64,000 nt of DNA from Patescibacteria group bacterium AH-259-L05 (GTDB taxonomy: Bacteria; Patescibacteriota; Patescibacteriia; UBA2591; UBA6264). Under the pieces are notes generated by a model. The model was not told the DNA's origin. It was given only the letters and a program-made list of their open reading frames with translations, and did not search any database. The stretch spans positions 80,534-144,533 of the forward strand of contig JALLOO010000001.1 of the NCBI GenBank assembly GCA_027717985.1. Direction: 5' to 3'. The translations under genes were made by a program, and so were the position numbers. The first letter of the stretch is position 1; each line of letters starts with the position of its first letter. This document shows, piece after piece, positions 82-58,696 of the stretch.

Positions 82-140
82 ATAAGAACCTGACTTCGTC
101 AGAACCTTGAAGTTTGAAAGGAATAATATTTTTATCCAAA
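82..140 (+). repeat. Family-B short repeat, intergenic copy in the 5' leader of the MraY/WecA-type gene (ATAAGAACCTGACTTCGTCAGAACCTTGAAGTTTGAAAGGAATAATATTTTTATCCAAA)
   Basis: Nearly identical to 24905-24983 apart from a 20-nt nested insert there. Shares its core with 58668-58696 and 12808-12894. The core is two AGAACCT direct repeats flanking a CTGAC-TTC-GTCAG hairpin. Confidence 0.8.
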
Positions 141-144
141 CTTT

Positions 145-1242
145 ATGATATATATACTTTTTTTTATTGCAAGCTTTATACTTTCTATTTTTATAACCTT
201 TGTTGTTAAGACTCTTGCGTTAAAACTTAAAATATTAGATTGGCCAGAAGTAGGAGGACGGAAAATACATAAAAAGCCAGTTCCGCTCTTGGGCGGTTTG
301 GCTATTTTTATTACCTTTTTTGTTATTTTGTTTGTTATTTATTTGACGCCACTATGGCCAGAAGGCGCCGTAAAGCTAAAACATTTAATTGGATTATTAT
401 TAGGGGGGATAGTTATAATGGTTGGCGGATTTTTAGATGACAAATATCAATTAAAACCATATTATCAAATTATTTGGCCGATTATTGCAGTAATCATTAT
501 TGGTGTGAGCGGGATGGGAATCGAATATGTTAATAATCCTATAGGAGAAGGATATGTACATCTTGATACATATAAAATTGAGGTTATACGTTTGAGCGGG
601 ATCCCCTATTATTTTACGCCTTTGGCTGATATAGTAACGTTTGTATGGTTAATGCTGGTAATGTATGCTACTAAACTTCTTGATGGATTAGATGGATTGG
701 TAAGCGGTATAACTTTTTTGGGGGCGTTAAGTATTGCAGGATTGTCTTTTTTGACCATATTTTTTCAGCCTGATGTAGGATTAATGGCACTACTATTTGC
801 CGGCGCAGTATTAGGATTTTTATTATTTAATTTTCACCCTGCAAAAATATTTTTAGGAGAAGGAGGAAGTTTATTTGCCGGCTTTATGTTAGGGGCCCTT
901 GCTATTATTTCAGGGGGGAAATTAGCAACTACGTTTTTAATTGTGGGCTTAGCAGTATTTGATTTGTTTGGGGTAGTGGTGAGAAGGGTCATAATTTCAC
1001 ATGGTTCAGCATTTTTGCCTGATAGGGCTCACCTACATTTTCGTCTGCTCGAAGTTGGGCTTTCTCATAAAAAAGCAGTGTTATTGTATTGGATTATTGC
1101 GGTTTTGTTTGGTATTGCCGCTCTATTTTTACGCACCACCGGAAAAATTGTTGCATTAGCCATTTTATTGGCACTCTCAGTTATCTTAATTGGTTTTTTG
1201 CCTGCAAAAAAGGCTCAAATTGACAAACGAGGTGTTTCATGA
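145..1242 (+). CDS. Glycosyltransferase family 4, MraY/WecA-type polyprenyl-phosphate sugar-1-phosphate transferase
   Basis: 365-aa multi-TM ORF with motifs FLDDKYQLKP, KLLDGLDGL and NFHPAKIFLGEGGSLFAGF, typical of the MraY/WecA family. MraY versus WecA cannot be separated by eye. Confidence 0.8.
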   Translation: MIYILFFIASFILSIFITFVVKTLALKLKILDWPEVGGRKIHKKPVPLLGGLAIFITFFVILFVIYLTPLWPEGAVKLKHLIGLLLGGIVIMVGGFLDDKYQLKPYYQIIWPIIAVIIIGVSGMGIEYVNNPIGEGYVHLDTYKIEVIRLSGIPYYFTPLADIVTFVWLMLVMYATKLLDGLDGLVSGITFLGALSIAGLSFLTIFFQPDVGLMALLFAGAVLGFLLFNFHPAKIFLGEGGSLFAGFMLGALAIISGGKLATTFLIVGLAVFDLFGVVVRRVIISHGSAFLPDRAHLHFRLLEVGLSHKKAVLLYWIIAVLFGIAALFLRTTGKIVALAILLALSVILIGFLPAKKAQIDKRGVS

Positions 1243-1255
1243 TATACTGATTGCT

Positions 1256-2821
1256 ATGGTTAAGGCAAAGAAAGAAGAAATTGTGGTGTTTGCGCAAACG
1301 TATGACCGTAAAGTCAAAAAAGATATTGGCATTAAAACCAATGATCGCCGACAGCACATGTATTTATTAGGTACCGCAAAGACAGGGAAGTCAACAATGC
1401 TGGAAAACATGATATATCAAGATATATACGCAGGACGCGGCGTTGCGGTTGTTGACCCGCATGGCAAGTTGGCTTCACGGGTACTTAATTTTATCCCCAC
1501 CCATCGCATTAATGATGTTATTTATTTTAATCCTACTGACCGAGAACATCCTTTTGCATTTAATGTATTAGAAGATGTTGATGTAAGTTATCGACATTTT
1601 TTAGTTGTTTCTGGCCTGATCTCTGTTTTTAAAAAAATGTGGGTTGATATATGGGGGCCGCAATTAGAATATACGTTACGTAACATCATTTTAGCATTAC
1701 TTGAGTATCCTGGCTCAACCTTGTTGGGTATTATGCGTATGCTTTCCGATGAGGAATTTAGAGATCGCGTACTTACGCATAGTACTGATCCAGAAGTGAA
1801 GTCATTTTGGCGAGATGAGTATCCGCGCTACCCAGATCATTTACAAGCAGAAGTTATTACGCCAATTACTAATAGAATCAGTAAGTTATTATCTGTACCA
1901 TTGGTAAGAAATATTGTAGGGCAGGTGAAATCAAAAGTGAATATGCGCGAAGTACTTGATAAAGGAAAGATTGTAATTATAGATTTATCCAAGGCGCGTA
2001 TTGGAGAAGATGCGACAACCTTGTTGGGCGCGATGATGACGGTAAAAATTCAAATGGCGGCCATGGCCCGGAGACTTATGAGCGAGGATAAGCGACGTGA
2101 TTTTTATTTGTATATTGATGGATTTGATAACTTTGCCACTGATTCGTTTATTGAAACGCTATCAGAGGCACATACATATCGTCTCAACCTTGTTATCGCA
2201 CATCAATATATTGATCAGTTAGTAACAGGAGGAGATACACGTTTACGAGATGCTCTTTTTAATAATGTGGGAACCATGGTGATATATAGGGTGAGTGCTG
2301 AAGATAATACATTTTTATCTAAAACGTTGTTTCCTCGAAAGATTAAAAAAGTTGATTTAATGAATTTAGATAGGCACCAGATATATATTAAGCGTATAGT
2401 TGATGGTACCGTATCAAAGCCGTTTGCCGCCATGACCTTGCCCAGAATGGCATCCCTTGAGGGAAATAAACGTAAAATTATTACGCTCTCACAAGAGCAG
2501 TATACTGAGCCACAAAAAATTGTTGAAGAAAAAATAGCGCGATGGCGAGGCCTTATTAGCAAGGATGAACATGTATCTCCCCAAGGAGAAAAAGATATGT
2601 ACCAAGCAAGATGTGATACATGTAAGACAGATATATATATATCATTTATCCCTGATGGAGTGCGTCCCGTGTTTTGTAAAAAATGTTTAAAAGAATGGGA
2701 AAACCAGCAGAGTCATTTGCCCAGACAGGAACAAGAATATGAAAAAAAATCCCCCTTGCTGCAAGAAATTTCATTGGAACAAGCAATGAAAAAAGATCCT
2801 GTTTCATTTAAAAAAAGATAA
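1256..2821 (+). CDS. VirD4/TraD-like (type IV coupling protein family) P-loop NTPase with C-terminal CxxC...CxxC zinc ribbon
   Basis: Walker A GTAKTGKST, VVDPHGKL, IAHQYIDQL (TraG/TraD-type Q..Q motif) and C-terminal CDTCKTDIYISFIPDGVRPVFCKKC. I prefer the start at ATG 1256 (MVKAKKEE) because the 1190 start overlaps the upstream CDS. Confidence 0.6.
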   Translation: MVKAKKEEIVVFAQTYDRKVKKDIGIKTNDRRQHMYLLGTAKTGKSTMLENMIYQDIYAGRGVAVVDPHGKLASRVLNFIPTHRINDVIYFNPTDREHPFAFNVLEDVDVSYRHFLVVSGLISVFKKMWVDIWGPQLEYTLRNIILALLEYPGSTLLGIMRMLSDEEFRDRVLTHSTDPEVKSFWRDEYPRYPDHLQAEVITPITNRISKLLSVPLVRNIVGQVKSKVNMREVLDKGKIVIIDLSKARIGEDATTLLGAMMTVKIQMAAMARRLMSEDKRRDFYLYIDGFDNFATDSFIETLSEAHTYRLNLVIAHQYIDQLVTGGDTRLRDALFNNVGTMVIYRVSAEDNTFLSKTLFPRKIKKVDLMNLDRHQIYIKRIVDGTVSKPFAAMTLPRMASLEGNKRKIITLSQEQYTEPQKIVEEKIARWRGLISKDEHVSPQGEKDMYQARCDTCKTDIYISFIPDGVRPVFCKKCLKEWENQQSHLPRQEQEYEKKSPLLQEISLEQAMKKDPVSFKKR

Positions 2822-2822
2822 C

Positions 2823-4985
2823 ATGAAAACTGATAAAATTCGAAAAACATTTTTAGATTTTTTTAAGAGAAGGGGTCATGAAATTATTCCCTCATCTTCG
2901 TTAATTCCTGCTGATCCGACAGCATTATTTACTTCAGCAGGTATGCAGCAATTTGTGCCGTATTTGTCTGGTGAGGTTGAACCGCCCTATCGCCGTGCCG
3001 CAAGTGCGCAAAAGTGTTTTCGTACCTCTGATATTGATGAGGTAGGTGATGAATATCATCATACCTATTTTGAAATGCTTGGTAATTGGTCATTTGGTGA
3101 TTATTTTAAGACTGAGGCAATTCAATGGGCATTGGAATTATTGGTAAAAGAATATAAGTTACCACAGGATAAGCTTTGGGTGACTGTATTTTTAGGAGAA
3201 AGAGGCGTGTCCAAAGATACGGAAGCAGCAAAGCTGTGGGAGCAATTTGGCGTTGATAAGAAAAGAATTAAAGAGTTTGGTATGGAGGATAATTTTTGGG
3301 GGCCGGTTGGTTCAACCGGGCCATGCGGGCCATGTACTGAAATTCATTATGATCAAGGCAAAGATTTTCAAAAAGAAAAATGCTCTCTTAATGGATGCGG
3401 GCCGAATTGTAGTTGCGGGAGATTTGTTGAAGTATGGAATTTAGTATTTATGGAGTATCGCAAGACTCGTGAAGGTAAATATGAAAAATTACCTGCGCAA
3501 AACGTTGATACCGGCGCGGGATTAGAACGTCTCGCCGCAGTGCTTCAAAACAAATCATCAGATTATGAAACAGATTTATTTTTGCCCATAGTTAATACAA
3601 TTAAAGAGCTTTCGCCAATTTCTTTGTCATCTCCCCCTCTGTCTTCCCGAGCGACCCCTCCTTTGTCATCCCGAGCGACCCCTCCTTTGTCATCCCGAGC
3701 GACCCCTCCTTTGTCATCCCGAGCGACCCCTCCTTTGTCATCCCGAGCGACCCCTCCTTTGTCATCCCGAGCGACCCCTCCTTTGTCATCCCGAGCGACC
3801 CCTCCTTTGTCATCCCGAGCGACCCCTCCTTTGTCATCCCGAGCGACCCCTCCTCTGTCTTCCCGAGCGACCCCTCCTTTGTCATCCCGAGCGACCCCTC
3901 CTTTGTCATCCCGAGCGACCCCTCCTTTGTCATCCCGAGCGACCGAAGGGAGCGAGGGATCCCAACAAAATGAAAAAGCAGTTCGCGTTATTGCTGATCA
4001 TATGCGCGCCGTGTGTTTTTTAATTGCCGATGGCGTGATTCCTTCAAATGAAGATCGCGGATATATGCTTCGCCGGTTAATGCGAAGGGCGATGCGCTAT
4101 GCTCGCAGGCTTCATATGGGGAAAAATTTTTTAATCCCCATTTGCCAAGTGATCATTGATGTATATAAGGGGCAGTATCCCGAATTACAAAAAAAACAAA
4201 ATGATATTTTAACATTGGTGCAAAACGAAGAAGAAAAATTTATGAAAAGCCTGCGTGATGGATTGAAACGGTTTAGAGTATTAGTACAAGAGACAAAAAA
4301 TCAAGACGAGACTGTTTTAGATCCTCAAAAAACATTTCAACTCTATGATACGTATGGCTTCCCGATTGAATTAACCATTGAGATGGCGCAGGAAAAGGGA
4401 TTAACAGTGGATGAAGTTGGGTTTCAAAAAGAGTTTGAGCGTCATCGAAAAATATCACGCGCCGGCGCAGTGCATAAGTTTAGTGGTGTTGGTGAGTGGG
4501 GAGATAAGGTCGCGCCCCAGCACAGCGCTACCCATTTGCTCCATCAAGCATTGCGCGATGTACTAGGCGAGCATGTGCATCAAGATGGTTCTGATTTAAC
4601 GCCTGAGCGCCTGCGGTTTGATTTTACACACCCTAAGCCATTAACAAAGGAAGAGATTAAAGCAATTGAAGATTTGGTAAATAAGCAAATTGAGCGCGAT
4701 CTCATCGTGACGGTTGAAAAAAAGAAATTTGAAAATGCGGTTAAAGCTGGTGCGCTTGCTTTTTTTAGAGAGAAATATCCTAAAGAAGTGACCGTCTATA
4801 CTATGGGGGATTTTTCAAAAGAGGTATGTACCGGGCCGCATGTTAAACATACGAACCAAATTGGAAAATTTAAAATTGTAAAAGATGAAGCGCTTTCTGC
4901 AGGAGCGAGAAGGATTAGAGCAGTGGTTGAGGGGAGTACATATAAACCAAAAGGGATTTCAGTTTTTGATTCTAAAAGCATTTAA
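2823..4985 (+). CDS. alaS: Alanine--tRNA ligase, short form (no C-Ala domain), carrying a 13x8-aa repeat insertion
   Basis: FTSAGMQQF, RVIADHMRAVCFLIADGVIPSNEDRGY, and the editing-domain motifs HSATHLLHQAL and CTGPHV. 720 aa including about 114 aa encoded by the repeat. Confidence 0.93.
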   Translation: MKTDKIRKTFLDFFKRRGHEIIPSSSLIPADPTALFTSAGMQQFVPYLSGEVEPPYRRAASAQKCFRTSDIDEVGDEYHHTYFEMLGNWSFGDYFKTEAIQWALELLVKEYKLPQDKLWVTVFLGERGVSKDTEAAKLWEQFGVDKKRIKEFGMEDNFWGPVGSTGPCGPCTEIHYDQGKDFQKEKCSLNGCGPNCSCGRFVEVWNLVFMEYRKTREGKYEKLPAQNVDTGAGLERLAAVLQNKSSDYETDLFLPIVNTIKELSPISLSSPPLSSRATPPLSSRATPPLSSRATPPLSSRATPPLSSRATPPLSSRATPPLSSRATPPLSSRATPPLSSRATPPLSSRATPPLSSRATPPLSSRATPPLSSRATEGSEGSQQNEKAVRVIADHMRAVCFLIADGVIPSNEDRGYMLRRLMRRAMRYARRLHMGKNFLIPICQVIIDVYKGQYPELQKKQNDILTLVQNEEEKFMKSLRDGLKRFRVLVQETKNQDETVLDPQKTFQLYDTYGFPIELTIEMAQEKGLTVDEVGFQKEFERHRKISRAGAVHKFSGVGEWGDKVAPQHSATHLLHQALRDVLGEHVHQDGSDLTPERLRFDFTHPKPLTKEEIKAIEDLVNKQIERDLIVTVEKKKFENAVKAGALAFFREKYPKEVTVYTMGDFSKEVCTGPHVKHTNQIGKFKIVKDEALSAGARRIRAVVEGSTYKPKGISVFDSKSI
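3621..3962 (+). repeat. Family-A repeat: tandem array of 13 x 24 bp (CCCCTCCTTTGTCATCCCGAGCGA-type) plus terminal hairpin arm, in frame in alaS
   Basis: 3633-3944 is 13 phased 24-nt units translated as (PPLSSRAT)13. Two units carry the CTGTCTTCC variant. The 3945-3961 arm GAAGGGAGCGAGGGATC pairs with the last unit. Confidence 0.95.
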
Positions 4986-11079: not shown

Positions 11080-14000
11080 ATGCCGACACCATCAACAATT
11101 TCCACATTAACGTTACCATCTGATAAAAGAAGACATCAGGCTGATTTTGATGCGATACGTTTACATCTCGCATCACCAAAAGAGATTATGGAGGAATGGT
11201 CATATGGGGAGGTTACGAAGCCAGAAACCATTAATTATCGATCTCGTAAGCCAGAGCGCGACGGCTTATTTTGTCAGAGAATTTTTGGTCCGGTAAAAGA
11301 CTGGCAGTGCGCGTGCGGCAAATATAAAAAGCTGCGCTATCGTGGTATCACGTGTGATCGTTGCGGCGTTGAGATAACGCGATCGTTAGTACGGCGTGAA
11401 CGCTTGGGCCATATTAAACTTGCTGCACCAGTAGCCCATATTTGGTTTTTGCGCAGCGTCCCATCAAAAATCGGGCTGTTGTTAGATATGTCAGTTGCGG
11501 CATTAGAAAAAGTGGCTTATTTTGCTAATTTTATCATTACCCATGTTGATGAAGATTTAAAAGAAAAAGCGCAAGAAAAATTAGAGCAAGAGTTTAATGA
11601 TGAGAAAAAAGCGCTTAAACATGAAAAACATAACGATTCAAAGGAATATGCAAGGAGACTTGAGGATCTAACGACAGCATATAAAGAAACAAAGCGTGAA
11701 ATAACAGAGTTATATGAAAAGCGTTTGTTAACTGAACTAGAATATCGCGAGCTTTCGATGAGCTATGGGCATATTTTTGAGGCTGGTATTGGTGCAGAGG
11801 CAATTTTAAAATTACTTGAAAATCTTGATTTGTCTAAACTTGCACGAGAACTTGAAAAGAAGCGGGGAGAAACAACCAATCCTACTAAAAAGAAAAAATT
11901 ACTCCAGCGTATAAAGTATGTCCACAATTTTATTACCAATAATGTCAAGCCAGAGTATATGGTGCTCCGTGCAGTGCCCGTGATTCCACCAGAACTAAGG
12001 CCATTAGTGCCGTTAGATGGCGGCAGGTTTGCGTCTTCAGATTTAAATGATTTGTATCGACGGATAATCAATCGCAATAATCGTTTAAAACGATTGTATG
12101 ATTTGCATGCGCCAGAGGTGATTTTACGCAATGAAAAGAGAATGCTTCAAGAAGCAGTTGATGCATTAATTGATAATGAAATGCGTTCAGGGAAAACAAC
12201 CATTGCCTCGACTGGGCAGCGAAGGCCCTTAAAATCTTTAGCTGATATTTTAAAAGGAAAGCAAGGGCGATTTCGACAGAATTTACTTGGGAAGCGCGTA
12301 GATTATTCAGGCCGATCTGTTATTGTGGTTGGGCCGCGCCTGAAGTTAAGTCAGTGCGGTCTGCCAAAGCTTATGGCAGTGGAATTGTTTAAGCCGTTTA
12401 TTGCTTCTGAATTAATTAAGCGAGAAATTGTTCATAATGTGAGATCCGCCAATCGTTTAATTGAGACAGGGACTGAAGAGGTATATGCTATTTTAGAAGA
12501 AATTATTAAAGATACACATGTATTATTGAATCGTGCGCCAACACTTCATCGATTAGGCATTCAAGCGTTTCAGCCTGTATTGATTGAAGGAAAAGCGATT
12601 CAAATTCATCCCTTGGTATGTGCAGCATTTAATGCTGATTTTGATGGAGATCAAATGGCGGTACACGTTCCTATTACGAGTCAGGCACGTGATGAGGCAA
12701 AAAATATTATTCTCTCAACACACAATTTGTTAAAGCCGGCAACGGGCGAGCCAATTGTGACCCCAACGCAAGATATGATCTGGGGCGCATATTATATGAC
12801 CTATTGTGAGCGGAGCGAACAACAAGGTTCTGCGAAGCATGGTTCTTATGACGAGCGGAGAGAGGAACAAGGTTCTGCGAAGCACGGTTCTTATATTCAC
12901 AAAAAAAGTAAAAAAGAATATCCGAATTTTAGTAGTATCGATGAAGCAGTGTTGGCATACTCAATCGGGAAAATTACGCTTCAAGAGAAAATTAACGTTA
13001 GAGTTGATTCTGAGCGCAGACAAGTGAGTGTGGGGCGGTTATTATTTAATGCAATTCTGCCAAAAGGAATTTATACTATGGATACCGTGGTTGATAAAGG
13101 GACGTTAAAACAAATTGTAATTAAAACAATTCAAAAATATGGCAGAGATAAGACAGTTGAATTGTTGGATCAAATTAAACAAACTACACTCACGTATTTA
13201 ACAGGATCAGGGCTTTCGTGGGGAATGGATGATTTGCCTGACTTGGAGCAAAAAAAAGAGATTCTTGCTGAGGCAGAAAAACGCATTGATGAGATTAGAA
13301 ACCAATATGAAACCGGTTTGTTATCTGAAAATGAACGATATTTAAAAAGTATCGAAGTGTGGATTAGCGCAAAAGATAAAATTACTGAGGTGGTGAGAAA
13401 ACGAGATCCTGAATTTAGTCCTATATTTTCTATGGTTGAATCCGGTGCACGGGGTTCATGGGCACAGCTTACCCAAATGTTTGGTATGCGTGGTATTGTA
13501 TCTTCGCCAACCGGCAGATTAATTGAGCTTCCTATTAAATCTTCATTTAAAGAAGGATTTAATGTGTTAGAATATTTTATTTCTACCCATGGTTCGCGAA
13601 AAGGTGTATCTGATACCGCGCTTCGTACGGCGAGTGCGGGATATTTAACCCGGCGCATGGTTGATGTATGTCAGGACATTATTATTACTAAAAATGATTG
13701 TAAGAGTGCAAAGGGTTTTAAGTTCACGCGTGAAGACAATACAAAAATGGGAGAAAATTGGCAAACGCGTTTATTTGGCAGAGTAGCAGAAAAGGCAATC
13801 CATGACCCAAAATCAAAGGCTGTTATTGTTCGCAAAAATGATGTTATATCATATGATAAGGCAGAGGAAATACAAAATGCAGATCCTGAAGAGGTAAGGA
13901 TTCGATCGGTATTAACGTGTCAATCAGTGCGCGGTATATGCGCGCGATGCTATGGCTATGATTTAAGCTATAACGAGCCGGTTAAGATTGGTACACCAGT

Positions 14001-15012
14001 CGGTATTATTGCAGCTCAAAGTATTGGTGAACCAGGAACCCAGCTGACGCTGAGGACGTTTCATACAGGAGGTGTTGCGGGTAAAGATATTACACAAGGG
14101 CTTCCGCGTGTTGAAGAGCTGTTTGAAGTTAGGCCAGTAAAGCGGAAAGCAGTTATGGCAAAGCATAAGGGCACTGTTAAGATTATCTCATCAGATGATC
14201 AAAAAAGAGTTAGGATTACCTATCTGAGCAGACAAGAAGATACGTATACCATTGCGGGCAAAAAAGCCAAGCTTAACGTTAAGCAAGGGCAAAAATTAAA
14301 AAAGGGCGATAGTATTGCAATATTACCCTCCTTGTCATCCCGCGCCTCGCGCGGGAAGACAAAAGAAGTGTCATCTTCTGGGAAGAAAATCACGGCGCGG
14401 CATAGTGGAGAAGTTGCTATTGAAGATACGGTGGTTACGGTAACATATGAGGGGGAAAAACATGAAGAGTATGATGTGGCCGGATATACCATATGGGTTA
14501 AAGACAAAGATAAGGTAGAGAAGGGTCAGCAATTAACTGATGGAAGTTTGGATTTGCGTGAACTCTATACATTGCGCGGCAAAGAAGAGGTAGAAAAATA
14601 TATATTGCGGGAAATTCAATATATTTATTCATCTCAGGGGCAAAGATTAAATGATAAGCATGTTGAGCTCATTATTCGTCAAATATTTTCCCGCGTATTA
14701 GTAGTGGATTCTGGTGATACTGATCTTTTGCCCGGAGAGATTGTACCCAAAGCGTATGTAATTGAAGCAAATAAGATAGTTGAAAAAGAAGGTAAGAAAT
14801 CGGCCAAAGTAAAGGAGCTGCTCACTGGTATCACCCGGGTTTCACTCTCGACCGATAGCTGGCTTTCTGCTGCGAGTTTTCAAGAAACATCTCGTGTGTT
14901 AGTTAATGCGGCAATTAGCGGGCGGCCTGATTATTTACGCGGGTTAAAAGAAAATGTAATTGTGGGACAATTAATCCCTGCGGGAACCGGTTTGGAATCT
15001 AGAAAGGCCTAG
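11080..15012 (+). CDS. rpoC: DNA-directed RNA polymerase subunit beta-prime, with two repeat-derived in-frame insertions
   Basis: Zn finger CACGKYKKLRYRGITCDRCGV, catalytic NADFDGDQMAVH, and trigger-loop region DITQGLPRVEELFE. Confidence 0.96.
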   Translation: MPTPSTISTLTLPSDKRRHQADFDAIRLHLASPKEIMEEWSYGEVTKPETINYRSRKPERDGLFCQRIFGPVKDWQCACGKYKKLRYRGITCDRCGVEITRSLVRRERLGHIKLAAPVAHIWFLRSVPSKIGLLLDMSVAALEKVAYFANFIITHVDEDLKEKAQEKLEQEFNDEKKALKHEKHNDSKEYARRLEDLTTAYKETKREITELYEKRLLTELEYRELSMSYGHIFEAGIGAEAILKLLENLDLSKLARELEKKRGETTNPTKKKKLLQRIKYVHNFITNNVKPEYMVLRAVPVIPPELRPLVPLDGGRFASSDLNDLYRRIINRNNRLKRLYDLHAPEVILRNEKRMLQEAVDALIDNEMRSGKTTIASTGQRRPLKSLADILKGKQGRFRQNLLGKRVDYSGRSVIVVGPRLKLSQCGLPKLMAVELFKPFIASELIKREIVHNVRSANRLIETGTEEVYAILEEIIKDTHVLLNRAPTLHRLGIQAFQPVLIEGKAIQIHPLVCAAFNADFDGDQMAVHVPITSQARDEAKNIILSTHNLLKPATGEPIVTPTQDMIWGAYYMTYCERSEQQGSAKHGSYDERREEQGSAKHGSYIHKKSKKEYPNFSSIDEAVLAYSIGKITLQEKINVRVDSERRQVSVGRLLFNAILPKGIYTMDTVVDKGTLKQIVIKTIQKYGRDKTVELLDQIKQTTLTYLTGSGLSWGMDDLPDLEQKKEILAEAEKRIDEIRNQYETGLLSENERYLKSIEVWISAKDKITEVVRKRDPEFSPIFSMVESGARGSWAQLTQMFGMRGIVSSPTGRLIELPIKSSFKEGFNVLEYFISTHGSRKGVSDTALRTASAGYLTRRMVDVCQDIIITKNDCKSAKGFKFTREDNTKMGENWQTRLFGRVAEKAIHDPKSKAVIVRKNDVISYDKAEEIQNADPEEVRIRSVLTCQSVRGICARCYGYDLSYNEPVKIGTPVGIIAAQSIGEPGTQLTLRTFHTGGVAGKDITQGLPRVEELFEVRPVKRKAVMAKHKGTVKIISSDDQKRVRITYLSRQEDTYTIAGKKAKLNVKQGQKLKKGDSIAILPSLSSRASRGKTKEVSSSGKKITARHSGEVAIEDTVVTVTYEGEKHEEYDVAGYTIWVKDKDKVEKGQQLTDGSLDLRELYTLRGKEEVEKYILREIQYIYSSQGQRLNDKHVELIIRQIFSRVLVVDSGDTDLLPGEIVPKAYVIEANKIVEKEGKKSAKVKELLTGITRVSLSTDSWLSAASFQETSRVLVNAAISGRPDYLRGLKENVIVGQLIPAGTGLESRKA
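12808..12894 (-). repeat. Family-B-related tandem duplication (42 + 45 nt) in frame in rpoC
   Basis: Two consecutive copies of GAGCGGAG(C/A)GA..CAAGGTTCTGCGAAGCA(T/C)GGTTCTTAT encode ERSEQQGSAKHGSY / DERREEQGSAKHGSY. The core matches CAAGGTTCTGACGAAGTCAGGTTCTTAT at 58668-58696. Confidence 0.8.
14327..14365 (+). repeat. Family-A repeat (long-palindrome subtype) in frame in rpoC
   Basis: CCCTCCTTGTCATCCCGCGCCTCGCGCGGGAAGACAAAAG. A 14-bp stem (TTGTCATCCCGCGC / GCGCGGGAAGACAA) with one mismatch. Encodes [13 protein letters not shown]. Confidence 0.85.
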
Positions 15013-20121: not shown

Positions 20122-21429
20122 TCACAAATACCAGACAGGAATAAATTTAATAGACGTAGAGTTGATTTTTGTTTCTCCCCAAAATCCTTTTGTGAGAATT
20201 AACCCTTTTTGAGGCTTATATTGAGATACAAAATTTCTAAAACTCCTTGAGATATATGCAGATTTTAAGGCAGAATATTTTATTTCTACGGGGATAAGAT
20301 CTTTTGGTCTTTCTATAATGAAGTCTACTTCAGCGCCTGCTTTTGTTCTCCAGTATTTTAGTTCTAGTTCATCATCCTGTTTTCTTAATTGAGAAAAAAC
20401 TACATTTTCTGCTAATGCACCCATATCTGTTCTTAAGGAAATGGCGTTAAAATTATTAATAATATAGTTTCGGAGCCCTGAGTCAATAAAGTAGGTTTTA
20501 GGTGATTTTCTTATCTCTGTTGTTTTATTGGTAAAAAATGGTTTTATAAGTGAGATAATAAAGGTTTCTTCTAAAACAGAAAGATAGTGTTTAACTTCTT
20601 CAAAGTAACTGCCAGAATCATCAATAAGCGAATCATATTTAATTAGATTGCCTGTTCGGAGCCCTAATAAATTAATTAGTTTTTTAAACGTTGAAGTATT
20701 GGTTATTTTTAAAAGTTCTATAATATCTTTTTTAATATACGTATTATAAATATTTTTAAGCACTGTTCTTTTTGTTTCGTTATCATTGGTTTTTAATACC
20801 TCTGGATACCCTCCCCATATAGTATATTGTTCAAATAGTTTTTCAAAATCTTTACTAAAAATATCTTTTTTGGGAGAAATGAAGGGCTGAGAATCATCAA
20901 TAAATGCTTTTACTTGCTTAGATTTTTCCTGGTAAACATTATTGAGTTGTTTAGATTTAACTTGTAAAAACTCCTCAAAATCAAATTGCCACAGATCAAG
21001 AAAAAATACCCTTCCTACTAAAAATTTGGCTGTCTTTCCGGTTAGCTCTAAAGAAGAAGATCCGGTGATGATAAATTTAATATTATCAAATGTATCGTAT
21101 AATAGTTTTAAAATGTGTCCGCCTTGTTCTAGGTAGTGAAATTCATCTATTAAAAGATAAAATGTTTCTTTTTTGTCTGAAATTATACTTTTTATAGCCT
21201 CTCGTGCATCAAGAGTAAATTTTTCTAACATTTCATCATCTTCAAAGGTAATGAATATTATGTTATCTGGATTTACTTTTTTTTCTTGCGTTAACCATTG
21301 TTCAAGCATTCTCAAAAGAGTAGTTTTGCCTGCTTGCCGCGGACCCTTAATAGCTAAAATTTCTTTTCTATCTATCCATTTTTTAACATAAGTAAATAAG
21401 TTTCGGTTTAAATATCGTTCTTTTCCCAT
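20122..21429 (-). CDS. AAA+ ATPase with DUF4143-type C-terminal domain (AAA_14 family)
   Basis: Walker A IKGPRQAGKTTLL, LLIDEFHYL, YFIDSGLRNY, and a C-terminal restriction-endonuclease-like EVDFII motif. I prefer the start at ATG 21429 (MGKERY) because the promoter and repeats lie inside the longer ORF. Confidence 0.8.
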   Translation of the reverse strand: MGKERYLNRNLFTYVKKWIDRKEILAIKGPRQAGKTTLLRMLEQWLTQEKKVNPDNIIFITFEDDEMLEKFTLDAREAIKSIISDKKETFYLLIDEFHYLEQGGHILKLLYDTFDNIKFIITGSSSLELTGKTAKFLVGRVFFLDLWQFDFEEFLQVKSKQLNNVYQEKSKQVKAFIDDSQPFISPKKDIFSKDFEKLFEQYTIWGGYPEVLKTNDNETKRTVLKNIYNTYIKKDIIELLKITNTSTFKKLINLLGLRTGNLIKYDSLIDDSGSYFEEVKHYLSVLEETFIISLIKPFFTNKTTEIRKSPKTYFIDSGLRNYIINNFNAISLRTDMGALAENVVFSQLRKQDDELELKYWRTKAGAEVDFIIERPKDLIPVEIKYSALKSAYISRSFRNFVSQYKPQKGLILTKGFWGETKINSTSIKFIPVWYL

Positions 21430-21435
21430 AAAAAG

Positions 21436-21495
21436 TTTTAATAATAGTAGGGTTATTACTAAATACTTTTTAATAATAGTAGGGTTATTACTAAA
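21436..21495. repeat. Two 28-nt direct repeats (TTTTAATAATAGTAGGGTTATTACTAAA), 32-nt period, upstream of the AAA ATPase
   Basis: Copies at 21436-21463 and 21468-21495. The distal copy overlaps the predicted -10 and spacer. The proximal copy lies between the -10 and the ATG. Confidence 0.85.
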
Positions 21496-21501
21496 AGTCA
21501 A
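21473..21501 (-). promoter_or_regulatory. Predicted sigma70-type promoter (TTGACT-17-TATTAT) for the AAA ATPase gene
   Basis: On the minus strand, -35 is at 21501-21496 and -10 at 21478-21473. A perfect TTATCCACA/TGTGGATAA 9-mer lies 6 nt upstream, at 21508-21516. Confidence 0.5.
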
Positions 21502-22883: not shown

Positions 22884-23858
22884 TTACAATCTTACCTTCC
22901 TAAAATACTCACTCGCAAACGCATAAAATATACCAATAAACAATCCTAAAATTCCCGCAATCATCACATTTTGAGTTCTGTTGGGAGCGATTCTTGTCTC
23001 AGGCGGAGCCGCCGCAACCTCAACAGTGGTGGGCGTTGTTTGATATGCTTTTTCAAACTCTTTTTGCTGTAACTGTTGATCAATATTTATTAATTGCTGC
23101 TCTAAACTTAAAATTTGCGCTTTTTTATTCTCTTCTTGATTTTTAACACCTGCTAATAAATTAATATAGCTTTCAGCAATGCGTCCTTGTCCTTCAGATT
23201 GCACATTAGCCCTTTTGCTAATTTCTTTTTCATAATACATAATATCTTCTTCCAGACGAGCAGCATCTTGTTTAATTTTTTCAATATCTTTAAAAGTTTT
23301 TTCTTTATTTTTTTCAATTGTTTCAATTTCTTTATTTAATGTTTTTTCAGCTTCAGAAAAAAGTAGTTGATGCCGATTATTCAATATTTCAACAACCGCA
23401 TTAACCATTTCAACTGATTTTTCTGGCGTTTGTCCCCGGCCTTTTATACGTACAAAGGTAGATTTTTTTATAGCATCAATATCAAAACGACCTTTTAGGG
23501 CTATAGGAAATATTTCATTAGATAATCCTAATTTTGAATGAAGTCGTTCTAAGGTTATTTCCCGATCAAATATTGCCTTAATATCATCAACACTTTCTAT
23601 GTTTGACCCTTTTATTTGTGAGATTTTTACTAAAGATGTTGCCTCAAATGTTTCAGGCATAGTTAAACTAATGACCGCAGTAAGTATTACCGCTGCAAAA
23701 AAAATCGCCAAGATTTGCACTTTTCTTTTTAAGAGCACATCAATATAATCACGCAAATCAATTTCCTCCTCATAAACAACATTGTCATTGCGAGGCGCCG
23801 TAGGCGCCGAAGCAATCTCATTTTGCTCCTTGTTTTTTTCTTGATTTTGATTTTCCAT
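22884..23858 (-). CDS. Polysaccharide chain-length determinant (Wzz-like) protein
   Basis: N-terminal EEEIDLRDYIDVLLKRK followed by a TM, a long coiled-coil periplasmic region, and a C-terminal TM (IAGILGLFIGIFYAF). Confidence 0.65.
   Translation of the reverse strand: MENQNQEKNKEQNEIASAPTAPRNDNVVYEEEIDLRDYIDVLLKRKVQILAIFFAAVILTAVISLTMPETFEATSLVKISQIKGSNIESVDDIKAIFDREITLERLHSKLGLSNEIFPIALKGRFDIDAIKKSTFVRIKGRGQTPEKSVEMVNAVVEILNNRHQLLFSEAEKTLNKEIETIEKNKEKTFKDIEKIKQDAARLEEDIMYYEKEISKRANVQSEGQGRIAESYINLLAGVKNQEENKKAQILSLEQQLINIDQQLQQKEFEKAYQTTPTTVEVAAAPPETRIAPNRTQNVMIAGILGLFIGIFYAFASEYFRKVRL
23782..23819 (+). repeat. Family-A-like GC-rich hairpin repeat in frame in the wzz-like gene N-terminus
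   Basis: TTGTCATTGCGAGGCGCCGTAGGCGCCGAAGCAATCTC: the same TTGTCAT lead and ATTGC-GA...GA-GCAAT architecture. Encodes EIASAPTAPRND on the minus strand. Confidence 0.6.
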
Positions 23859-24108: not shown

Positions 24109-24399
24109 TTAAGCATTTAATGGTACTTTGACGCTTTCCAATTCTTGTGAAACAACTGCTGGCGGCATCCATTTTGTTTTTACCCGTTTCCATCCCAACT
24201 CTTGCAAGACCTCGGATAAAGTACCTCTTTTAAGTGTTTCTTCAAAAAAGATTTCAACAGCTTCATTAAACCGTTTTTTTGCCTCATCATAGTTTTTTCC
24301 GCATGTAGATAAATCAAGCGCTGGCGTATAAGCAATAAAGGTTTTCCCTTCGCGGAAAACAGATACTGGTAAATTAACTTCTACTTTTACTCGTTTCAT
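24109..24399 (-). CDS. hicB: HicB-like antitoxin (UPF0150 family)
   Basis: REGKTFIAYTPALDLSTCGKNYDEAKKRFNEAVEIFFE is typical of the HicB N-terminal domain. It sits 5 nt upstream of the hicA remnant. Confidence 0.7.
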   Translation of the reverse strand: MKRVKVEVNLPVSVFREGKTFIAYTPALDLSTCGKNYDEAKKRFNEAVEIFFEETLKRGTLSEVLQELGWKRVKTKWMPPAVVSQELESVKVPLNA

Positions 24400-24448
24400 A
24401 AATTTTTATTGGTTATTGATTGTTTATAACAAGCAGTCTAATTGATAT

Positions 24449-24477
24449 ATTATATCATCGTTTTTTAAACCAGTCAA
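24449..24477 (-). promoter_or_regulatory. Predicted consensus promoter (TTGACT-17-TATAAT) for hicB
   Basis: On the minus strand, -35 is at 24477-24472 (inside the 3' end of the galE-like gene) and -10 at 24454-24449. Confidence 0.5.
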
Positions 24478-25453
24478 TAGTTAATTTTAGGCCGGTATTT
24501 AAATCAATTTTTGGCTTCCACCCAAGCTCTCTTTTTATTTTTTCCCAATCAAGCGCACTTCGCTGCAACTCTCCTTTAATAGGCGGTTCATATTTTTTAG
24601 ATATTTTAGAATTAGTAAATTGAGTTAATTTTTTAAAAATTTGATTAACACTAGTTTGCTTCCCAGTGCCAACATTGTATATACCTATTTTATTTCCTCC
24701 AAGAGCCAATAAATTCGCACGTACCACATCTTCAACATACACATAATCCCGTGTTTGTCTGCCAGATCCGTTAATAGTACATGGTTTGTTGTTCAATATA
24801 TTGAGAATAAATATAGCAATAACTCCTGCTTCTGCAAGCACATTTTGTCGTGGGCCATACACATTTGCGTATCTGAGCACAACGTAATCCAGCCCAAATT
24901 GTTTATAAGAACCTGACTTCGTCGCGCTAAGCGCGACTTTGTCAGAACCTTGAAATTTGAAAGGAATGATATCTTTATCCAAATTATAATAAATTTTTAA
25001 ATATTTTTCAACCGTGAGCTTGCTTAACCCATAAGGCGAAGTTGGCTGAGCAGTGTAACTTTCAAGTGTAGGTATTTTTTTTGTTTCCCCATAGATAGCC
25101 CCACCAGTTGAAGAGAAAATAATTTTTTTTACTTTATATTTTTGCGCGTTTTCAATAACATTAAGCGATCCTAATATATTAACATCAGCGTCGAATACAG
25201 GGCTTTCTAAAGAGGCTCTTAAATTGATCTGTGCGGCACAATGAAATACAATGTCAGGTTTTTCACTAATAAAAATCTCATTAACTTTTTTATCTCGAAT
25301 GTCTATCTTAAAGAATTTTGCTTTTGGATTTATATTTTTTTTTAATCCAGTCGATAAATCATCAATTATATATACTTTATGCCTATTTTGAATGAGAGAG
25401 TCCACAAGGTGAGAACCAATAAACCCCGCCCCACCAGTTACTAAAATTTTCAT
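24455..25453 (-). CDS. NAD-dependent sugar epimerase (UDP-glucose 4-epimerase GalE-like), with a repeat-derived 26-27-aa insertion
   Basis: ILVTGGAGFIGSH and YGLSKLTVEKY (YxxxK). The conserved run ...KIYY / KQFGLDYVVLRYANVYGPRQ is interrupted by NLDKDIIPFKFQGSDKVALSATKSGSY. Confidence 0.8.
   Translation of the reverse strand: MKILVTGGAGFIGSHLVDSLIQNRHKVYIIDDLSTGLKKNINPKAKFFKIDIRDKKVNEIFISEKPDIVFHCAAQINLRASLESPVFDADVNILGSLNVIENAQKYKVKKIIFSSTGGAIYGETKKIPTLESYTAQPTSPYGLSKLTVEKYLKIYYNLDKDIIPFKFQGSDKVALSATKSGSYKQFGLDYVVLRYANVYGPRQNVLAEAGVIAIFILNILNNKPCTINGSGRQTRDYVYVEDVVRANLLALGGNKIGIYNVGTGKQTSVNQIFKKLTQFTNSKISKKYEPPIKGELQRSALDWEKIKRELGWKPKIDLNTGLKLTIDWFKKR
24905..24983 (+). repeat. Family-B repeat, full-length copy with nested GCGC palindrome, in frame in the galE-like gene
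   Basis: Collinear with 82-140 apart from an extra GCGCTAAGCGCGACTTTGTC. The palindrome GTCGCGC-TAA-GCGCGAC is at 24921-24937 and is flanked by GACTTCGTC / GACTTTGTC. Confidence 0.9.
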
Positions 25454-58401: not shown

Positions 58402-58650
58402 TTACCAATCTTCAATAATTTTTTTTGTTTTATTTTTTAATTTATGATATATGCTGGCGGTTTTCCTCTCAGCTTTTGGCGAGATTAATCTTAATATTTC
58501 TGCTCCTACAATTTTATATCTACCGCCAACTTTATTGGCTCTGATAATACCTTTTTTTAGCCAACGTTTAATTGTACTTTCACTTATTTTTAAAAAATTT
58601 CTGGCTTCTTTTGTAGTATAAATTTTATTTGGTTTAATTTCATCCATCAT
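58402..58650 (-). CDS. Excisionase/MerR-superfamily helix-turn-helix DNA-binding protein
   Basis: YTTKEARNFLKISESTIKRWLKKGIIRANKVGGRYKI matches the excisionase-family HTH signature. 82 aa. Confidence 0.65.
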   Translation of the reverse strand: MMDEIKPNKIYTTKEARNFLKISESTIKRWLKKGIIRANKVGGRYKIVGAEILRLISPKAERKTASIYHKLKNKTKKIIEDW

Positions 58651-58667
58651 AACGATTTAATTGAAAA

Positions 58668-58696
58668 TCAAGGTTCTGACGAAGTCAGGTTCTTAT
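58668..58696 (-). repeat. Family-B repeat core in the 5' leader of the HTH gene
   Basis: The plus strand reads TCAAGGTTCTGACGAAGTCAGGTTCTTAT, the reverse complement of 82-110. It lies 18 nt upstream of the ATG at 58650. Confidence 0.85.

What the first reader, a model, noticed from the sequence alone, without database searches (positions are those of the whole stretch)
24905..24983. A second repeat family (AAGAACCTGAC...) is inserted in frame in a galE-like gene and itself carries a nested palindrome flanked by 9-bp direct repeats
Seen in sequence:
- 24905-24983 is collinear with the intergenic copy at 82-140: ATAAGAACCTGACTTCGTC...AGAACCTTGAA(G/A)TTTGAAAGGAAT(A/G)ATAT(T/C)TTTATCCAAA.
- In the minus-strand gene it encodes NLDKDIIPFKFQGSDKVALSATKSGSY.
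- That peptide splits the otherwise contiguous epimerase block ...LKIYY | KQFGLDYVVLRYANVYGPRQ.
- The coding copy contains 20 extra nt with a perfect palindrome, GTCGCGC-TAA-GCGCGAC (24921-24937).
- The palindrome is bracketed by GACTTCGTC and GACTTTGTC, which looks like a target duplication of the GACTTCGTC site present once in the 82-140 copy.

Inference: this is a nested insertion, one mini-palindrome inside another repeat inside a gene, which points to repeated and recent mobility.
Basis: partly seen in the sequence, partly recalled or inferred. Interest (0 to 1): 0.8.

Follow-up and report, generated by a model that had tools for sequence, protein, structure and literature searches.

The report
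In-frame hairpin repeat inside galE
A short two-hairpin repeat, widespread in the tiny-genome Patescibacteria and apparently undescribed, has inserted in frame into a sugar-epimerase gene (and into rpoC) and is read as an extra floppy protein loop, much like the palindromic elements of Rickettsia.

Summary
24905-24985 is an 81-nt (27-codon) insertion in a GalE-like gene of Patescibacteria bacterium AH-259-L05. None of the 119 closest homologues, nor the best-aligned solved epimerases, has residues there. AlphaFold places it as a disordered loop after the YxxxK helix.

The insert belongs to a modular repeat: (A/T)TAAGAAC, hairpin 1, GAACCTTGA, hairpin 2, then usually ATAA. A covariance model finds exactly five copies in the window:
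- two intergenic copies;
- the galE copy;
- two degenerate tandem copies inside rpoC.

The near-exact core occurs in 27 Patescibacteria assemblies. It stays 28/29 identical where neighbouring genes are about 63% identical. Both hairpin stems change by compensating substitutions.

One orientation has stop codons in all three frames. This fits the finding that coding copies are always antisense.

The 20 extra nt extend hairpin 1 and bring the insert from 61 nt to 81 nt, a multiple of three. A separate transposition with a 9-bp target duplication is not established. The same 17-nt palindrome caps many unrelated hairpins in metagenomes, but 30 of 31 low-GC contexts lack such a duplication.

How the element moves is unknown. 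No matching Rfam family or paper was found.

The parts
24905..24985 (+). Full element copy, equal to the 81-nt insertion in galE.
   Evidence: Sequence. CM hit of 41.7 bits, E = 6e-9. The codon-level comparison with P0002 and P0003 shows exactly 27 extra codons. None of 119 homologues has residues there.
24905..24908 (+). ATAA at the left edge, repeated at 24986-24989. This is either a 4-bp target duplication or an end tetranucleotide; the inferred empty site TTGTTT-ATAA-TAAAT has one copy.
   Evidence: ATAA follows hairpin 2 in 13 of 32 copies with a clear hairpin 2.
24906..24912 (+). Left conserved box TAAGAAC.
   Evidence: These are invariant columns in the 28-variant alignment A3.
24913..24945 (+). 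Hairpin 1, extended form: CTGAC-TTC-GTCGCGC-TAA-GCGCGAC-TTT-GTCAG.
   Evidence: RNA and DNA folds give z = -4.5 to -5.6. The outer 5-bp stem covaries across the family.
24921..24937 (+). GC-rich apex palindrome GTCGCGC-TAA-GCGCGAC. Together with one of the two 9-nt repeats it makes up the 20 nt absent from copy 82-144.
   Evidence: The same 17-mer occurs in at least 120 metagenome contigs.
24915..24923 (+). GACTTCGTC, the first of the two 9-nt direct repeats. The second, GACTTTGTC, lies at 24935-24943.
   Evidence: The geometry recurs in L043 and L007, but in only 1 of 31 other contexts of the palindrome.
24945..24953 (+). Right conserved box GAACCTTGA.
24954..24985 (+). Hairpin 2 (AATTTG...CAAATT). 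Relative to copy 1 (AGTTTG...CAAACT) it carries a compensating G>A / C>T change.
24455..25453 (-). Host gene: an extended-SDR UDP-glucose 4-epimerase-like protein of 332 aa, with the GxxGxxG and YxxxK motifs intact.
   Evidence: PDB 4zrm at E = 1e-90. NCBI names it an 'NAD-dependent epimerase/dehydratase family protein', Patescibacteria group bacterium AH-259-L05. Invariant G7, G8, G10, Y141 and K145. AF2 mean pLDDT 89.8.
82..144 (+). Canonical intergenic copy with the short hairpin 1 (90-102) and hairpin 2 (110-143). Its TGA at 91-93 ends the upstream ORF, and the ATG of the glycosyltransferase-4 gene follows at 145.
58668..58696 (-). Canonical core, 29/29 identical to 82-110. It lies in the leader of the HTH_17 gene 58402..58650, downstream of a TTGACA-17-TATAAT site.
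   Evidence: (I1).
12822..12894 (-). Two degenerate tandem cores (12822-12849 and 12867-12894) inside rpoC (11080..15012, +). They are read as ...QQGSAKHGSY...EQGSAKHGSY... and form about 25-27 residues absent from 13 homologues.
   Evidence: (D16), Pfam, translation, CM at 31.3 bits each, alignment A4.

Best explanation
24905-24985 is one copy of a short, modular, hairpin-forming repeat family of Patescibacteria. Its layout is (A/T)TAAGAAC, hairpin 1 (variable stem, usually a TTC loop), GAACCTTGA, hairpin 2 (lineage-specific), then usually ATAA.

The family behaves like a small non-autonomous mobile element of the REP, BOX or Rickettsia-palindromic-element kind. It normally fills intergenic spacers, sometimes as tandem arrays, and it is occasionally inserted into genes.

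In one orientation the core carries TAA, TGA and TGA in the three frames. Such a copy can only survive between genes or at the very 3' end of a gene, where it supplies the stop codon. In the other orientation two frames are open.

The galE copy sits in that permissive antisense orientation at an ATAA site. It is 81 nt long, so the gene stays in frame and is translated with a 27-residue disordered surface loop. This loop lies between the catalytic YxxxK helix and the next beta strand. The active-site motifs are intact, so the enzyme probably still works.

The 20 'extra' nucleotides are a GC-rich extension of hairpin 1, which is the family's variable module. They lengthen a 61-nt frameshifting unit to an 81-nt in-frame one. 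This is probably why this variant is the one found in a coding sequence.

Shown:
- the anatomy of the element and its copy census in the window;
- covariation in both hairpins;
- the in-frame insertion in galE;
- presence or absence at orthologous sites;
- much stronger conservation of the core than of adjacent genes.

Inferred:
- that the element is mobilised as DNA, perhaps as a single strand by a hairpin-recognising enzyme;
- that the extended hairpin existed before the insertion;
- that the loop is tolerated rather than useful.
For: Family and anatomy:
- There are five CM hits in the window and nothing else.
- The near-exact core lies in 44 loci from 27 Patescibacteria assemblies.
- Tandem arrays have 40-67-nt units.
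- Hairpin 1: all 5 pairs show changes on both sides, with 21 compensated cells against 5.4 in shuffles. 89% of cells are paired, against 24-54% when the partners are slid.
- 61% of distinct hairpin 1 variants have an outer stem of at least 4 bp, against 0.5% of shuffles.
- Hairpin 2 stems differ by lineage but stay paired: AGTTTG/CAAACT, AATTTG/CAAATT, AATCGG/CCGATT, AATTAAAT/ATTTAATT.

Insertion:
- PDB and homologue alignments show a clean 27-residue gap.
- DNA of P0002 and P0003 shows the uninterrupted site.
- In the AF2 model the insert residues 161-184 have pLDDT below 50, between helix 140-157 and strand 189-195, in an otherwise 89.8-pLDDT model.

Frames and orientation:
- The three-frame stops can be read directly from the sequence.
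- Four copies supply the upstream gene's stop codon.
- All three internal coding copies are antisense.
- Intergenic copies are 37 co-directional against 13 antisense to both neighbours.

Mobility:
- The nusB-rnc junction carries the element in 3 of 5 genomes, at two positions and with 1 to 4 units.
- rpoC carries two copies absent from 13 homologues.

Constraint or homogenisation:
- The core is 28/29 identical where 300 nt of adjacent nusB is 61-65% identical.

Length arithmetic:
- The insertion is 81 nt (24905-24985) and carries 20 nt more in hairpin 1 than the canonical form, so a canonical-hairpin unit at this site would be 61 nt.
Against: - No transposase or other mobilising enzyme was found. 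tblastn with recalled IS200, IS608 and RAYT sequences hit nothing in about 390 kb of element-bearing DNA. No such Pfam family was hit among the 20 window ORFs scanned, mostly in the left third of the window; the ORFs right of about 25.5 kb were not scanned, apart from two near copy 3.
- There are no terminal inverted repeats.
- The ATAA repeat could be part of the element rather than a target duplication.
- The very high conservation of the core across divergent genomes, and the 3:1 orientation bias, fit a selected cis-acting function at least as well as selfish spread.
- Only one genome shows coding copies, so the parallel with Rickettsia rests on three copies in two genes.
- Expression of the inserted GalE and its activity are untested.
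- The source is a single-cell assembly and could not be re-examined.
Confidence: 0.7

Rival explanations
1. This is the nested transposition proposed by the first reader. An 11-nt GC palindrome (GCGCTAAGCGC) would be a separate mobile mini-element that inserted into the loop of hairpin 1 and duplicated the 9-bp target GACTTCGTC.
For: - The two 9-mers differ by one base and match better as direct repeats than as inverted repeats.
- The same 9+11+9 layout is seen in L043 (GACTTCGCC-GCGTCAGACGC-GGCTTCGTC), and roughly in L007.
- The 17-nt palindrome recurs in at least 120 metagenome contigs. In low-GC contigs it caps stems of other repeat families.
- GC-rich mini-hairpins are enriched in the window: 9 distinct ones, against about 1-2 in shuffles.
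Against: - Only 1 of 31 distinct low-GC contexts of the palindrome shows flanking direct repeats of at least 7/9.
- The three 'inserts' in hairpin 1 have three different sequences, so no single element is spreading.
- 11 nt is far below any known transposable unit.
- The 9-mer is itself the mini-hairpin GAC-TTC-GTC. Duplicating it is what keeps the longer stem paired, as selection for a hairpin would also produce.
- Hairpin 1 varies in length in many other ways, such as the TCGCTTCGCTC forms.
Confidence: 0.2
2. The family is primarily a selected cis-acting module rather than selfish DNA. It could be an intercistronic 'punctuation' element (three-frame stop plus a stabilising hairpin) when in the sense orientation. 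It could be an intrinsic-terminator-like hairpin when reversed. It would be recognised by a conserved host factor, and the galE and rpoC copies would be accidental by-products.
For: - The core is 97-100% conserved between genomes whose adjacent genes are about 63% identical, and across 27 assemblies.
- Compensatory changes preserve both hairpins.
- Copies are co-directional with both neighbouring genes in 37 cases and antisense to both in 13.
- Copies often span the whole spacer from stop codon to start codon, including inside ribosomal-protein operons such as rplC-rplD and rpsB-tsf.
- The reverse orientation scores as terminator-like, UCUGAC-GAA-GUCAGG followed by UUCUUAU.
Against: - Orthologous junctions lack the element in some genomes, and copy number varies from 0 to 4.
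- Both orientations occur.
- Tandem amplification and insertion into rpoC and galE are typical of selfish repeats.
- No Rfam family matches.
- No G-U pairs appear among 136 stem cells, which is unusual for an RNA structure.
- The two readings are not mutually exclusive.
Confidence: 0.3
3. The 27-residue loop is native to this epimerase lineage, and the intergenic copies are decayed fragments of paralogous genes.
For: On the minus strand, copy 82-144 is open in one frame and would read LDKNIIPFKLQGSDEVRFL, which resembles the galE peptide (own translation of the sequence).
Against: - None of 119 homologues, and neither of the best-aligned PDB epimerases shown residue by residue, has the loop.
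- The same core lies between unrelated genes in 27 assemblies, in tandem arrays and in rpoC.
- There is no epimerase-like sequence around 82-144.
Confidence: 0.01
4. The insertion is an artefact of single-cell amplification or assembly, that is, a chimeric join.
For: - The source is a single amplified genome (the name AH-259-L05).
- Tandem arrays of this element coincide with runs of N in other assemblies.
Against: - The insert is precise and in frame. It is bounded by a 4-bp repeat and flanked on both sides by contiguous galE sequence.
- Chimeras join distant loci; they do not splice in a complete 81-nt unit.
- The copy differs from the other window copies at several positions, including a compensated pair.
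Confidence: 0.03

Closest known systems
Rickettsia palindromic elements (RPE; Ogata et al. 2000, cited from my own knowledge)
   Same: Both are short palindromic repeats present in many copies in a small genome. Both are found between genes and also inserted in frame in protein-coding genes, including essential ones. Both are translated as extra segments at positions compatible with the fold.
   Different: The phylum differs. The unit is much shorter: 61-81 nt here, against roughly 100-150 bp for RPEs. The element is modular, with two conserved boxes flanking covarying hairpins. It has three-frame stops in one orientation and forms direct tandem arrays. Sequence relatedness to RPEs was not tested.
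REP / BIME elements and their RAYT transposases in Proteobacteria
   Same: Both are small intergenic hairpins with a conserved short sequence next to a covarying stem. Both have many copies, are often co-transcribed inside operons, and show no terminal inverted repeats.
   Different: No RAYT or Y1 transposase gene was found in the DNA sampled. Arrays here are direct rather than inverted pairs. The core is conserved across divergent genomes rather than being species-specific. Coding insertions occur.
BOX elements of Streptococcus pneumoniae and Correia (CREE/NEMIS) elements of Neisseria
   Same: Both are modular and hairpin-forming, with a variable number of internal modules. Both sit next to gene starts and ends, where they can supply or disturb expression signals.
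   Different: The element has no terminal inverted repeats like those of Correia elements. The sequence, host and module logic are different. Effects on expression are untested here.
IS200/IS605-derived palindrome-associated elements (PATE)
   Same: There are no inverted terminal repeats. A hairpin lies near each end. The same tetranucleotide (ATAA) abuts the left end and closes the right end. The loops read GNA closed by C-G on one strand, as in very stable single-stranded DNA mini-hairpins.
   Different: No TnpA gene was found. The cleavage-site logic is untested. The ATAA repeat may be an ordinary target duplication.
GC clusters and double-hairpin elements of AT-rich mitochondrial genomes (yeast, Allomyces; from my own knowledge)
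   Same: Both are GC-rich palindromes scattered in an AT-rich genome. Both are found nested in other elements and inside genes. This resembles the GCGCTAAGCGC-type apex hairpins seen here and in low-GC metagenome contigs.
   Different: Those elements are organellar and have defined sequence classes. Here the apex palindromes differ in sequence, and their mobility is unproven.

Membership tests
Rickettsia palindromic elements (RPE-like in-frame selfish repeats) | A multi-copy palindromic repeat inserted in frame in protein-coding genes and kept as an open reading frame. | tested here: met
   galE has an 81-nt insert of 27 codons. rpoC has two copies read through as about 25-27 extra residues.
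Rickettsia palindromic elements (RPE-like in-frame selfish repeats) | The insertion lies at a site compatible with the fold and function of the host protein. | tested here: met
   In the AF2 model the insert has pLDDT below 50, between helix 140-157 and strand 189-195, while the rest of the model is confident. The GxxGxxG and YxxxK residues are invariant. Enzyme activity was not tested.
Rickettsia palindromic elements (RPE-like in-frame selfish repeats) | Sequence membership in RPE-1 to RPE-10, with units of about 100-150 bp, in Rickettsiales. | tested here: not met
   The unit is 61-81 nt and the host is Patescibacteria. Direct alignment to RPE consensus sequences was not done, because none was available.
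REP / REPIN-RAYT system | A short intergenic imperfect palindrome with an adjacent conserved motif, present in many copies. | tested here: met
   Conserved boxes flank a covarying 5-bp stem. There are 81 copies in the window plus 46 loci.
REP / REPIN-RAYT system | A cognate RAYT (Y1 HUH transposase) gene in the genome, typically flanked by the repeats. | tested here: inconclusive
   tblastn with recalled IS200, IS608 and RAYT proteins found nothing in L001-L046 or the window. A positive control hit an unrelated contig, L086. Only about 8 kb per locus was held, and whole genomes were not available.
REP / REPIN-RAYT system | Copies paired in inverted orientation (REPIN/BIME). | tested here: not met
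   The arrays are head-to-tail direct repeats with periods of 40-67 nt.
MITE (miniature inverted-repeat transposable element) | Terminal inverted repeats. | tested here: not met
   The left end TAAGAACC and the right ends (...CAAACTT...ATTTAATT) are not complementary.
MITE (miniature inverted-repeat transposable element) | A target-site duplication. | tested here: inconclusive
   ATAA lies on both sides of the galE insert, and the inferred empty site has one copy. ATAA follows hairpin 2 in 13 of 32 copies. It could equally be the element's own end.
MITE (miniature inverted-repeat transposable element) | A parent insertion sequence sharing the ends. | not testable with these tools
   No transposase family was hit among the 20 window ORFs scanned with Pfam; most ORFs right of about 25.5 kb were not scanned. 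Complete genomes could not be fetched.
IS200/IS605-type single-strand elements (PATE) | Subterminal hairpins at both ends and no inverted terminal repeats. | tested here: met
   The two-hairpin fold appears on either strand, and there are no terminal inverted repeats.
IS200/IS605-type single-strand elements (PATE) | A Y1 TnpA that cleaves at specific tetranucleotides, with strand-specific transposition. | not testable with these tools
   No TnpA was found in the sampled DNA. Biochemistry or a complete-genome strand analysis is needed.
Extended SDR / UDP-glucose 4-epimerase (the host gene) | A Rossmann GxxGxxG motif, the catalytic YxxxK, and full-length similarity to solved GalE enzymes. | tested here: met
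   4zrm at E = 1e-90, with 175 PDB sequences matched. G7, G8, G10, Y141 and K145 are invariant among 120 homologues. Substrate specificity was not tested.
Any curated RNA family (Rfam 15) | A match at the gathering score. | tested here: not met
   Only tRNA and rRNA were found in the window and 14 loci. For 1-300 at E up to 10 there were only chance-level hits.

The most novel reading that the evidence does not exclude
The AAGAACC...GAACCTTGA family, together with the interchangeable GC-rich apex palindromes, would be a Patescibacteria-wide system of hairpin elements moved or copied as single-stranded DNA by a still unidentified host or element enzyme. Loop-targeted micro-insertions (an 11-nt palindrome flanked by a duplicated 9-nt mini-hairpin) would be a second tier of the same process. 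This would be a bacterial counterpart of mitochondrial GC clusters, and it would remodel essential proteins (RpoC, AlaRS, GalE) in ultra-small genomes. A milder form of the same idea is that the core is a conserved, orientation-dependent expression signal (three-frame stop or terminator) that has become self-propagating.
Probability: 0.2. Interest if true: 0.8.

Novelty: new variant of a known kind. Interest (0 to 1): 0.6.

Why it matters
Patescibacteria have some of the smallest and most streamlined bacterial genomes, and they are usually described as poor in mobile DNA. A repeat family kept nearly identical across divergent lineages, filling operon spacers and writing extra loops into GalE and the RNA polymerase beta-prime subunit, would show three things.

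- Selfish or semi-domesticated hairpin repeats shape both gene expression signals and protein sequences in these organisms.
- The unexplained insertions often seen in their proteins may have this origin.
- Assemblies break where these elements form arrays.

The finding also gives a concrete sequence handle, the 29-nt core, with which to search for the enzyme or host factor that recognises it.

Tried and rejected
- **Rfam.** Nothing but tRNA and rRNA was found in the window and 14 loci.
- **Known self-cleaving ribozyme cores** (hammerhead, twister, pistol, hatchet). I compared these by eye from memory and found no match. This was not a formal test.
- **Promoter reading of hairpin 2.** Some subtypes contain TTGA-N16-TATAAT-like spacing. 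The window's own subtype does not, and the scan found no site in 82-144. I dropped it as a general explanation.
- **Phage or plasmid origin.**
  - blastn of the element against phage and plasmid collections gave no match.
  - The canonical core gave 0 hits in viral contigs.
  - A relaxed two-box pattern gave 120 viral hits, but only 5 had an inner stem of at least 4 bp and none had the family's loop or second hairpin. I took these as chance.
- **Retrieving more of the source genome.** Five look-ups of window proteins were not on record.
- **Peptide search for other coding copies.** The first query was too short. A 68-aa composite query found no candidate, so this was uninformative.
- **Transposase search.** Recalled Y1 transposase and RAYT sequences gave no hit in element-bearing DNA.
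- **Recurrent neighbour genes.** Clustering found only housekeeping genes such as nusB, rnc and rpsP, with no candidate mobilising gene.
- **Literature.** Six searches, including the motif itself, found no description. The library is incomplete, so this is not proof of novelty.
- **False positive removed.** A loose-pattern 'coding copy' in L031 is a chance match inside triose-phosphate isomerase. A 'sense coding copy' in L043 is an over-extended ORF call.
Full report
**Observation**

24905-24983 is collinear with 82-140. The two long shared sub-patterns occur 2 and 3 times in the window, against 0.00 expected in shuffles.

A third copy, with a core identical in 29 of 29 nt, lies at 58668-58696 on the minus strand.

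I built a covariance model from 28 variants of the core and ran it over the whole window without filters. It finds exactly five copies:
- 82-110 (+)
- 58668-58696 (-)
- 24905-24953 (+)
- 12822-12849 (-)
- 12867-12894 (-)

The next match has E = 0.09.

**The host gene and the insertion**

ORF 24455..25453 (-) is an extended-SDR epimerase. Its best solved relative is the 4zrm UDP-glucose 4-epimerase (E = 1e-90). That alignment jumps from query 155/chain 160 to query 184/chain 162.

The protein is identical to an NCBI entry from 'Patescibacteria group bacterium AH-259-L05'. Among the 119 closest homologues, none has a residue in the 27 insert columns.

Codon-level comparison with the two nearest genes (P0002 and P0003, from L045 and L046) shows exactly 27 extra codons. 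On the window's plus strand the insert is 24905-24985. ATAA is present at its left edge and again immediately to its right, and the inferred empty site TTGTTT-ATAA-TAAAT has one copy.

An AlphaFold model built on 120 homologues is confident (mean pLDDT 89.8), except at residues 161-184, where pLDDT is below 50. These residues form a loop between helix 140-157, which carries Y141 and K145, and strand 189-195. The Rossmann glycines and the YxxxK residues are invariant. The gene therefore looks functional and carries a disordered surface loop.

**What the repeat is**

I scanned one genome per species for ATAAGAACCTGAC-N(3-33)-GTCAGAACCTTGA. This returned 44 loci from 27 assemblies. Most are labelled Patescibacteria, Nealsonbacteria, Paceibacteria or Saccharibacteria. 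Three AT-rich assemblies are labelled Gammaproteobacteria, which I did not verify.

Aligning the copies shows a modular unit:
- a left box (A/T)TAAGAAC;
- hairpin 1;
- a right box GAACCTTGA;
- hairpin 2;
- then commonly ATAA.

Hairpin 1 is variable in sequence and length, with 13 to 37 nt between the boxes, but it stays paired.
- All five outer pairs show changes on both sides.
- There are 21 compensated cells, against 5.4 in shuffles.
- 89% of cells are paired, against 24-54% when the partners are slid.
- 61% of distinct variants have an outer stem of at least 4 bp, against 0.5% of shuffles.
- No G-U cell occurs among 136.

Hairpin 2 comes in lineage-specific subtypes whose stems also covary. 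The window and AH-259-L07 share the same subtype. The galE copy differs from copy 82-144 by a compensated pair, AGTTTG/CAAACT against AATTTG/CAAATT.

Units also form head-to-tail arrays of 40-67 nt. These often coincide with runs of N in MAGs, which are probably assembly gaps.

No Rfam family matches. There is no match in phage or plasmid collections, or in viral contigs beyond chance. Six literature searches found no description.

**Reading frames and orientation**

On the strand that reads ATAAGAACCTGAC..., the core contains TAA, TGA and TGA in the three frames. On the other strand two frames are open (QGSDEVRFL and KVLTKSGSY). This can be read directly from the sequence.

The placement of copies fits this.
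- Four copies supply the stop codon of the upstream gene.
  - In two of them (L009, L024) the gene is nusB, whose tail becomes ...YKNLTSSEP* or ...YKNLTPSEP*; the other two are in L020 and L025.
  - Read directly from the sequence, rplC in L001 and the ORF cut by the window start (...DQIRT*, stop at 91-93) also end at the element's TGA.
- All three genuine internal coding copies (galE and rpoC x2) are antisense.
- Intergenic copies are co-directional with both neighbours in 37 cases and antisense to both in 13. This count is not corrected for tandem copies.
- Reversed, the core scores as terminator-like: UCUGAC-GAA-GUCAGG followed by UUCUUAU. This could explain selection against that orientation inside operons, but it is an inference.

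**Evidence for mobility and for constraint**

At the nusB-rnc junction the element is present in three of five genomes. It sits at two different insertion points and has one to four units. Of the other two genomes, one has abutting genes and one has a different repeat.

In rpoC of this window, two degenerate tandem copies add about 25-27 residues after DMIWGAYYMT. These residues are absent from 13 homologues.

The core is nevertheless 28/29 identical between genomes whose adjacent 300 nt of nusB are 61-65% identical. GalE is 61% identical (best BLASTP local alignment) between AH-259-L05 and L07, while their hairpin 2 sequences differ by 1 nt in 38. The element is therefore either under strong constraint or continually homogenised.

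No mobilising enzyme was found.

Several features are compatible with a single-strand, hairpin-recognising mechanism of the IS200/IS605 or RAYT kind:
- the absence of terminal inverted repeats;
- a hairpin near each end;
- the recurrent ATAA at both borders;
- loops that read GAA, GGA, GCA or GTA closed by C-G on one strand, as in the very stable d(GCGAAGC) mini-hairpin, which I cite from my own knowledge.

I offer this mechanism as the most likely one, with low confidence.

**The 'nested' palindrome**

The 20 extra nucleotides turn CTGAC-TTC-GTCAG into CTGAC-TTC-GTCGCGC-TAA-GCGCGAC-TTT-GTCAG. This is one continuous hairpin with a symmetric internal loop.

They also change the insert length from 61 to 81 nt, that is, from a frameshift to 27 codons. 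A survivorship filter may be why this variant is the one seen in a gene.

The 17-nt palindrome does recur. It is found in at least 120 metagenome contigs. In low-GC contigs it often forms the apex of other, unrelated hairpins. These include relatives of the window's other repeat family and, from the flanking sequence by eye, apparent rRNA- and tRNA-adjacent sites.

GC-rich perfect mini-hairpins are also enriched in this 35%-GC window: 9 distinct ones, against about 1-2 in shuffles.

However, flanking direct repeats of at least 7/9 occur in only 1 of 31 distinct low-GC contexts. The three extended hairpin 1 variants that share the 9+11+9 layout (window, L043, roughly L007) carry three different palindromes.

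I therefore treat the extension as a variant of the family's variable module. A loop-targeted insertion remains possible at about 0.2.

**Verdict**

The feature is best described as a new family of short modular hairpin repeats in Patescibacteria, apparently undescribed in the sources searched. Its behaviour combines traits of REP/BOX elements with those of Rickettsia palindromic elements. The galE copy is a clean example of an in-frame, translated insertion.

It fails the sequence, length and host criteria for RPE membership. It also lacks the inverted repeats of a MITE and the inverted pairing of REPINs.

I rate it a new variant of a known kind, with interest 0.6. The mechanism of spread and any cellular function remain open.

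Noticed in passing
window 2823-4985 (repeat at 3585-3992): The alanyl-tRNA synthetase gene contains about 15 tandem 24-nt units of the other repeat family (CCCCTCCTTTGTCATCCCGAGCGA), in frame. The Pfam tRNA-synt_2c match is split into two stretches.
   Followed up: partly
window 11080-15012 (12822-12894): rpoC carries two degenerate tandem copies of the AAGAACC family. They are read as QQGSAKHGSY...EQGSAKHGSY and add about 25-27 residues absent from 13 homologues.
   Followed up: yes
window 3303, 14338, 17730, 18227, 23794, 24921, 41103, 42996, 55861: There are nine GC-rich perfect mini-hairpins (stem of at least 6 bp, loop of 3-5 nt) in a 35%-GC window, against about 1-2 in shuffles. Several lie in coding sequence: 23794-23808 encodes ...SAPTAP... 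near the N-terminus of the Wzz-like protein.
   Followed up: partly
L045 4001-5017 (P0002); P0008: The closest GalE homologues carry different in-frame inserts at other positions, for example GGMRLLRRFSPRLRRVEAGAPRNDKW in P0002. The DNA of that insert folds into GC-rich hairpins. Repeat-derived insertions therefore seem to recur in this protein family in Patescibacteria.
   Followed up: partly
window 58723-58751 (-): A perfect TTGACA-17-TATAAT site with a TG extension lies about 25 nt upstream of copy 58668-58696 and the small HTH_17 gene 58402..58650.
   Followed up: no
window 82-110 and 58668-58696: The two canonical cores are 29/29 identical and in inverted orientation, 58.5 kb apart (I1). 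I saw no recombinase among the 20 ORFs scanned and treated the pair as two ordinary copies. An invertible segment was not tested.
   Followed up: no
L001, L022, L038 (arrays of the element): Runs of N sit exactly inside tandem arrays of the element in three MAGs. This suggests that these arrays break or gap assemblies.
   Followed up: no
L046 5986-6053 versus window 24400-24454: In AH-259-L07 a full copy abuts the ATG of the 96-aa gene, which is orthologous to window 24109..24399. The window has no copy there, and the order of the Wzz and 96-aa genes differs between the two genomes.
   Followed up: partly
L003, L011, L014, L025, L036, L040: Three assemblies carrying the element are labelled 'uncultured Gammaproteobacteria'. 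They are AT-rich and carry their own hairpin 2 subtype. The taxonomic label looks doubtful but was not checked.
   Followed up: no
L132, L097, L115 (metagenome loci): The GTCGCGCTAAGCGCGAC hairpin also occurs inside what looks like a 23S rRNA gene segment and directly next to tRNA genes in low-GC contigs. I judged this from the flanking sequence by eye.
   Followed up: no
window 1190-2821 and 20122-21501: There is a TrwB/coupling-protein-like ATPase with a treble-clef zinc finger, and an AAA_14/DUF4143 ATPase. Copies of the latter also neighbour galE in L045 and L046.
   Followed up: no
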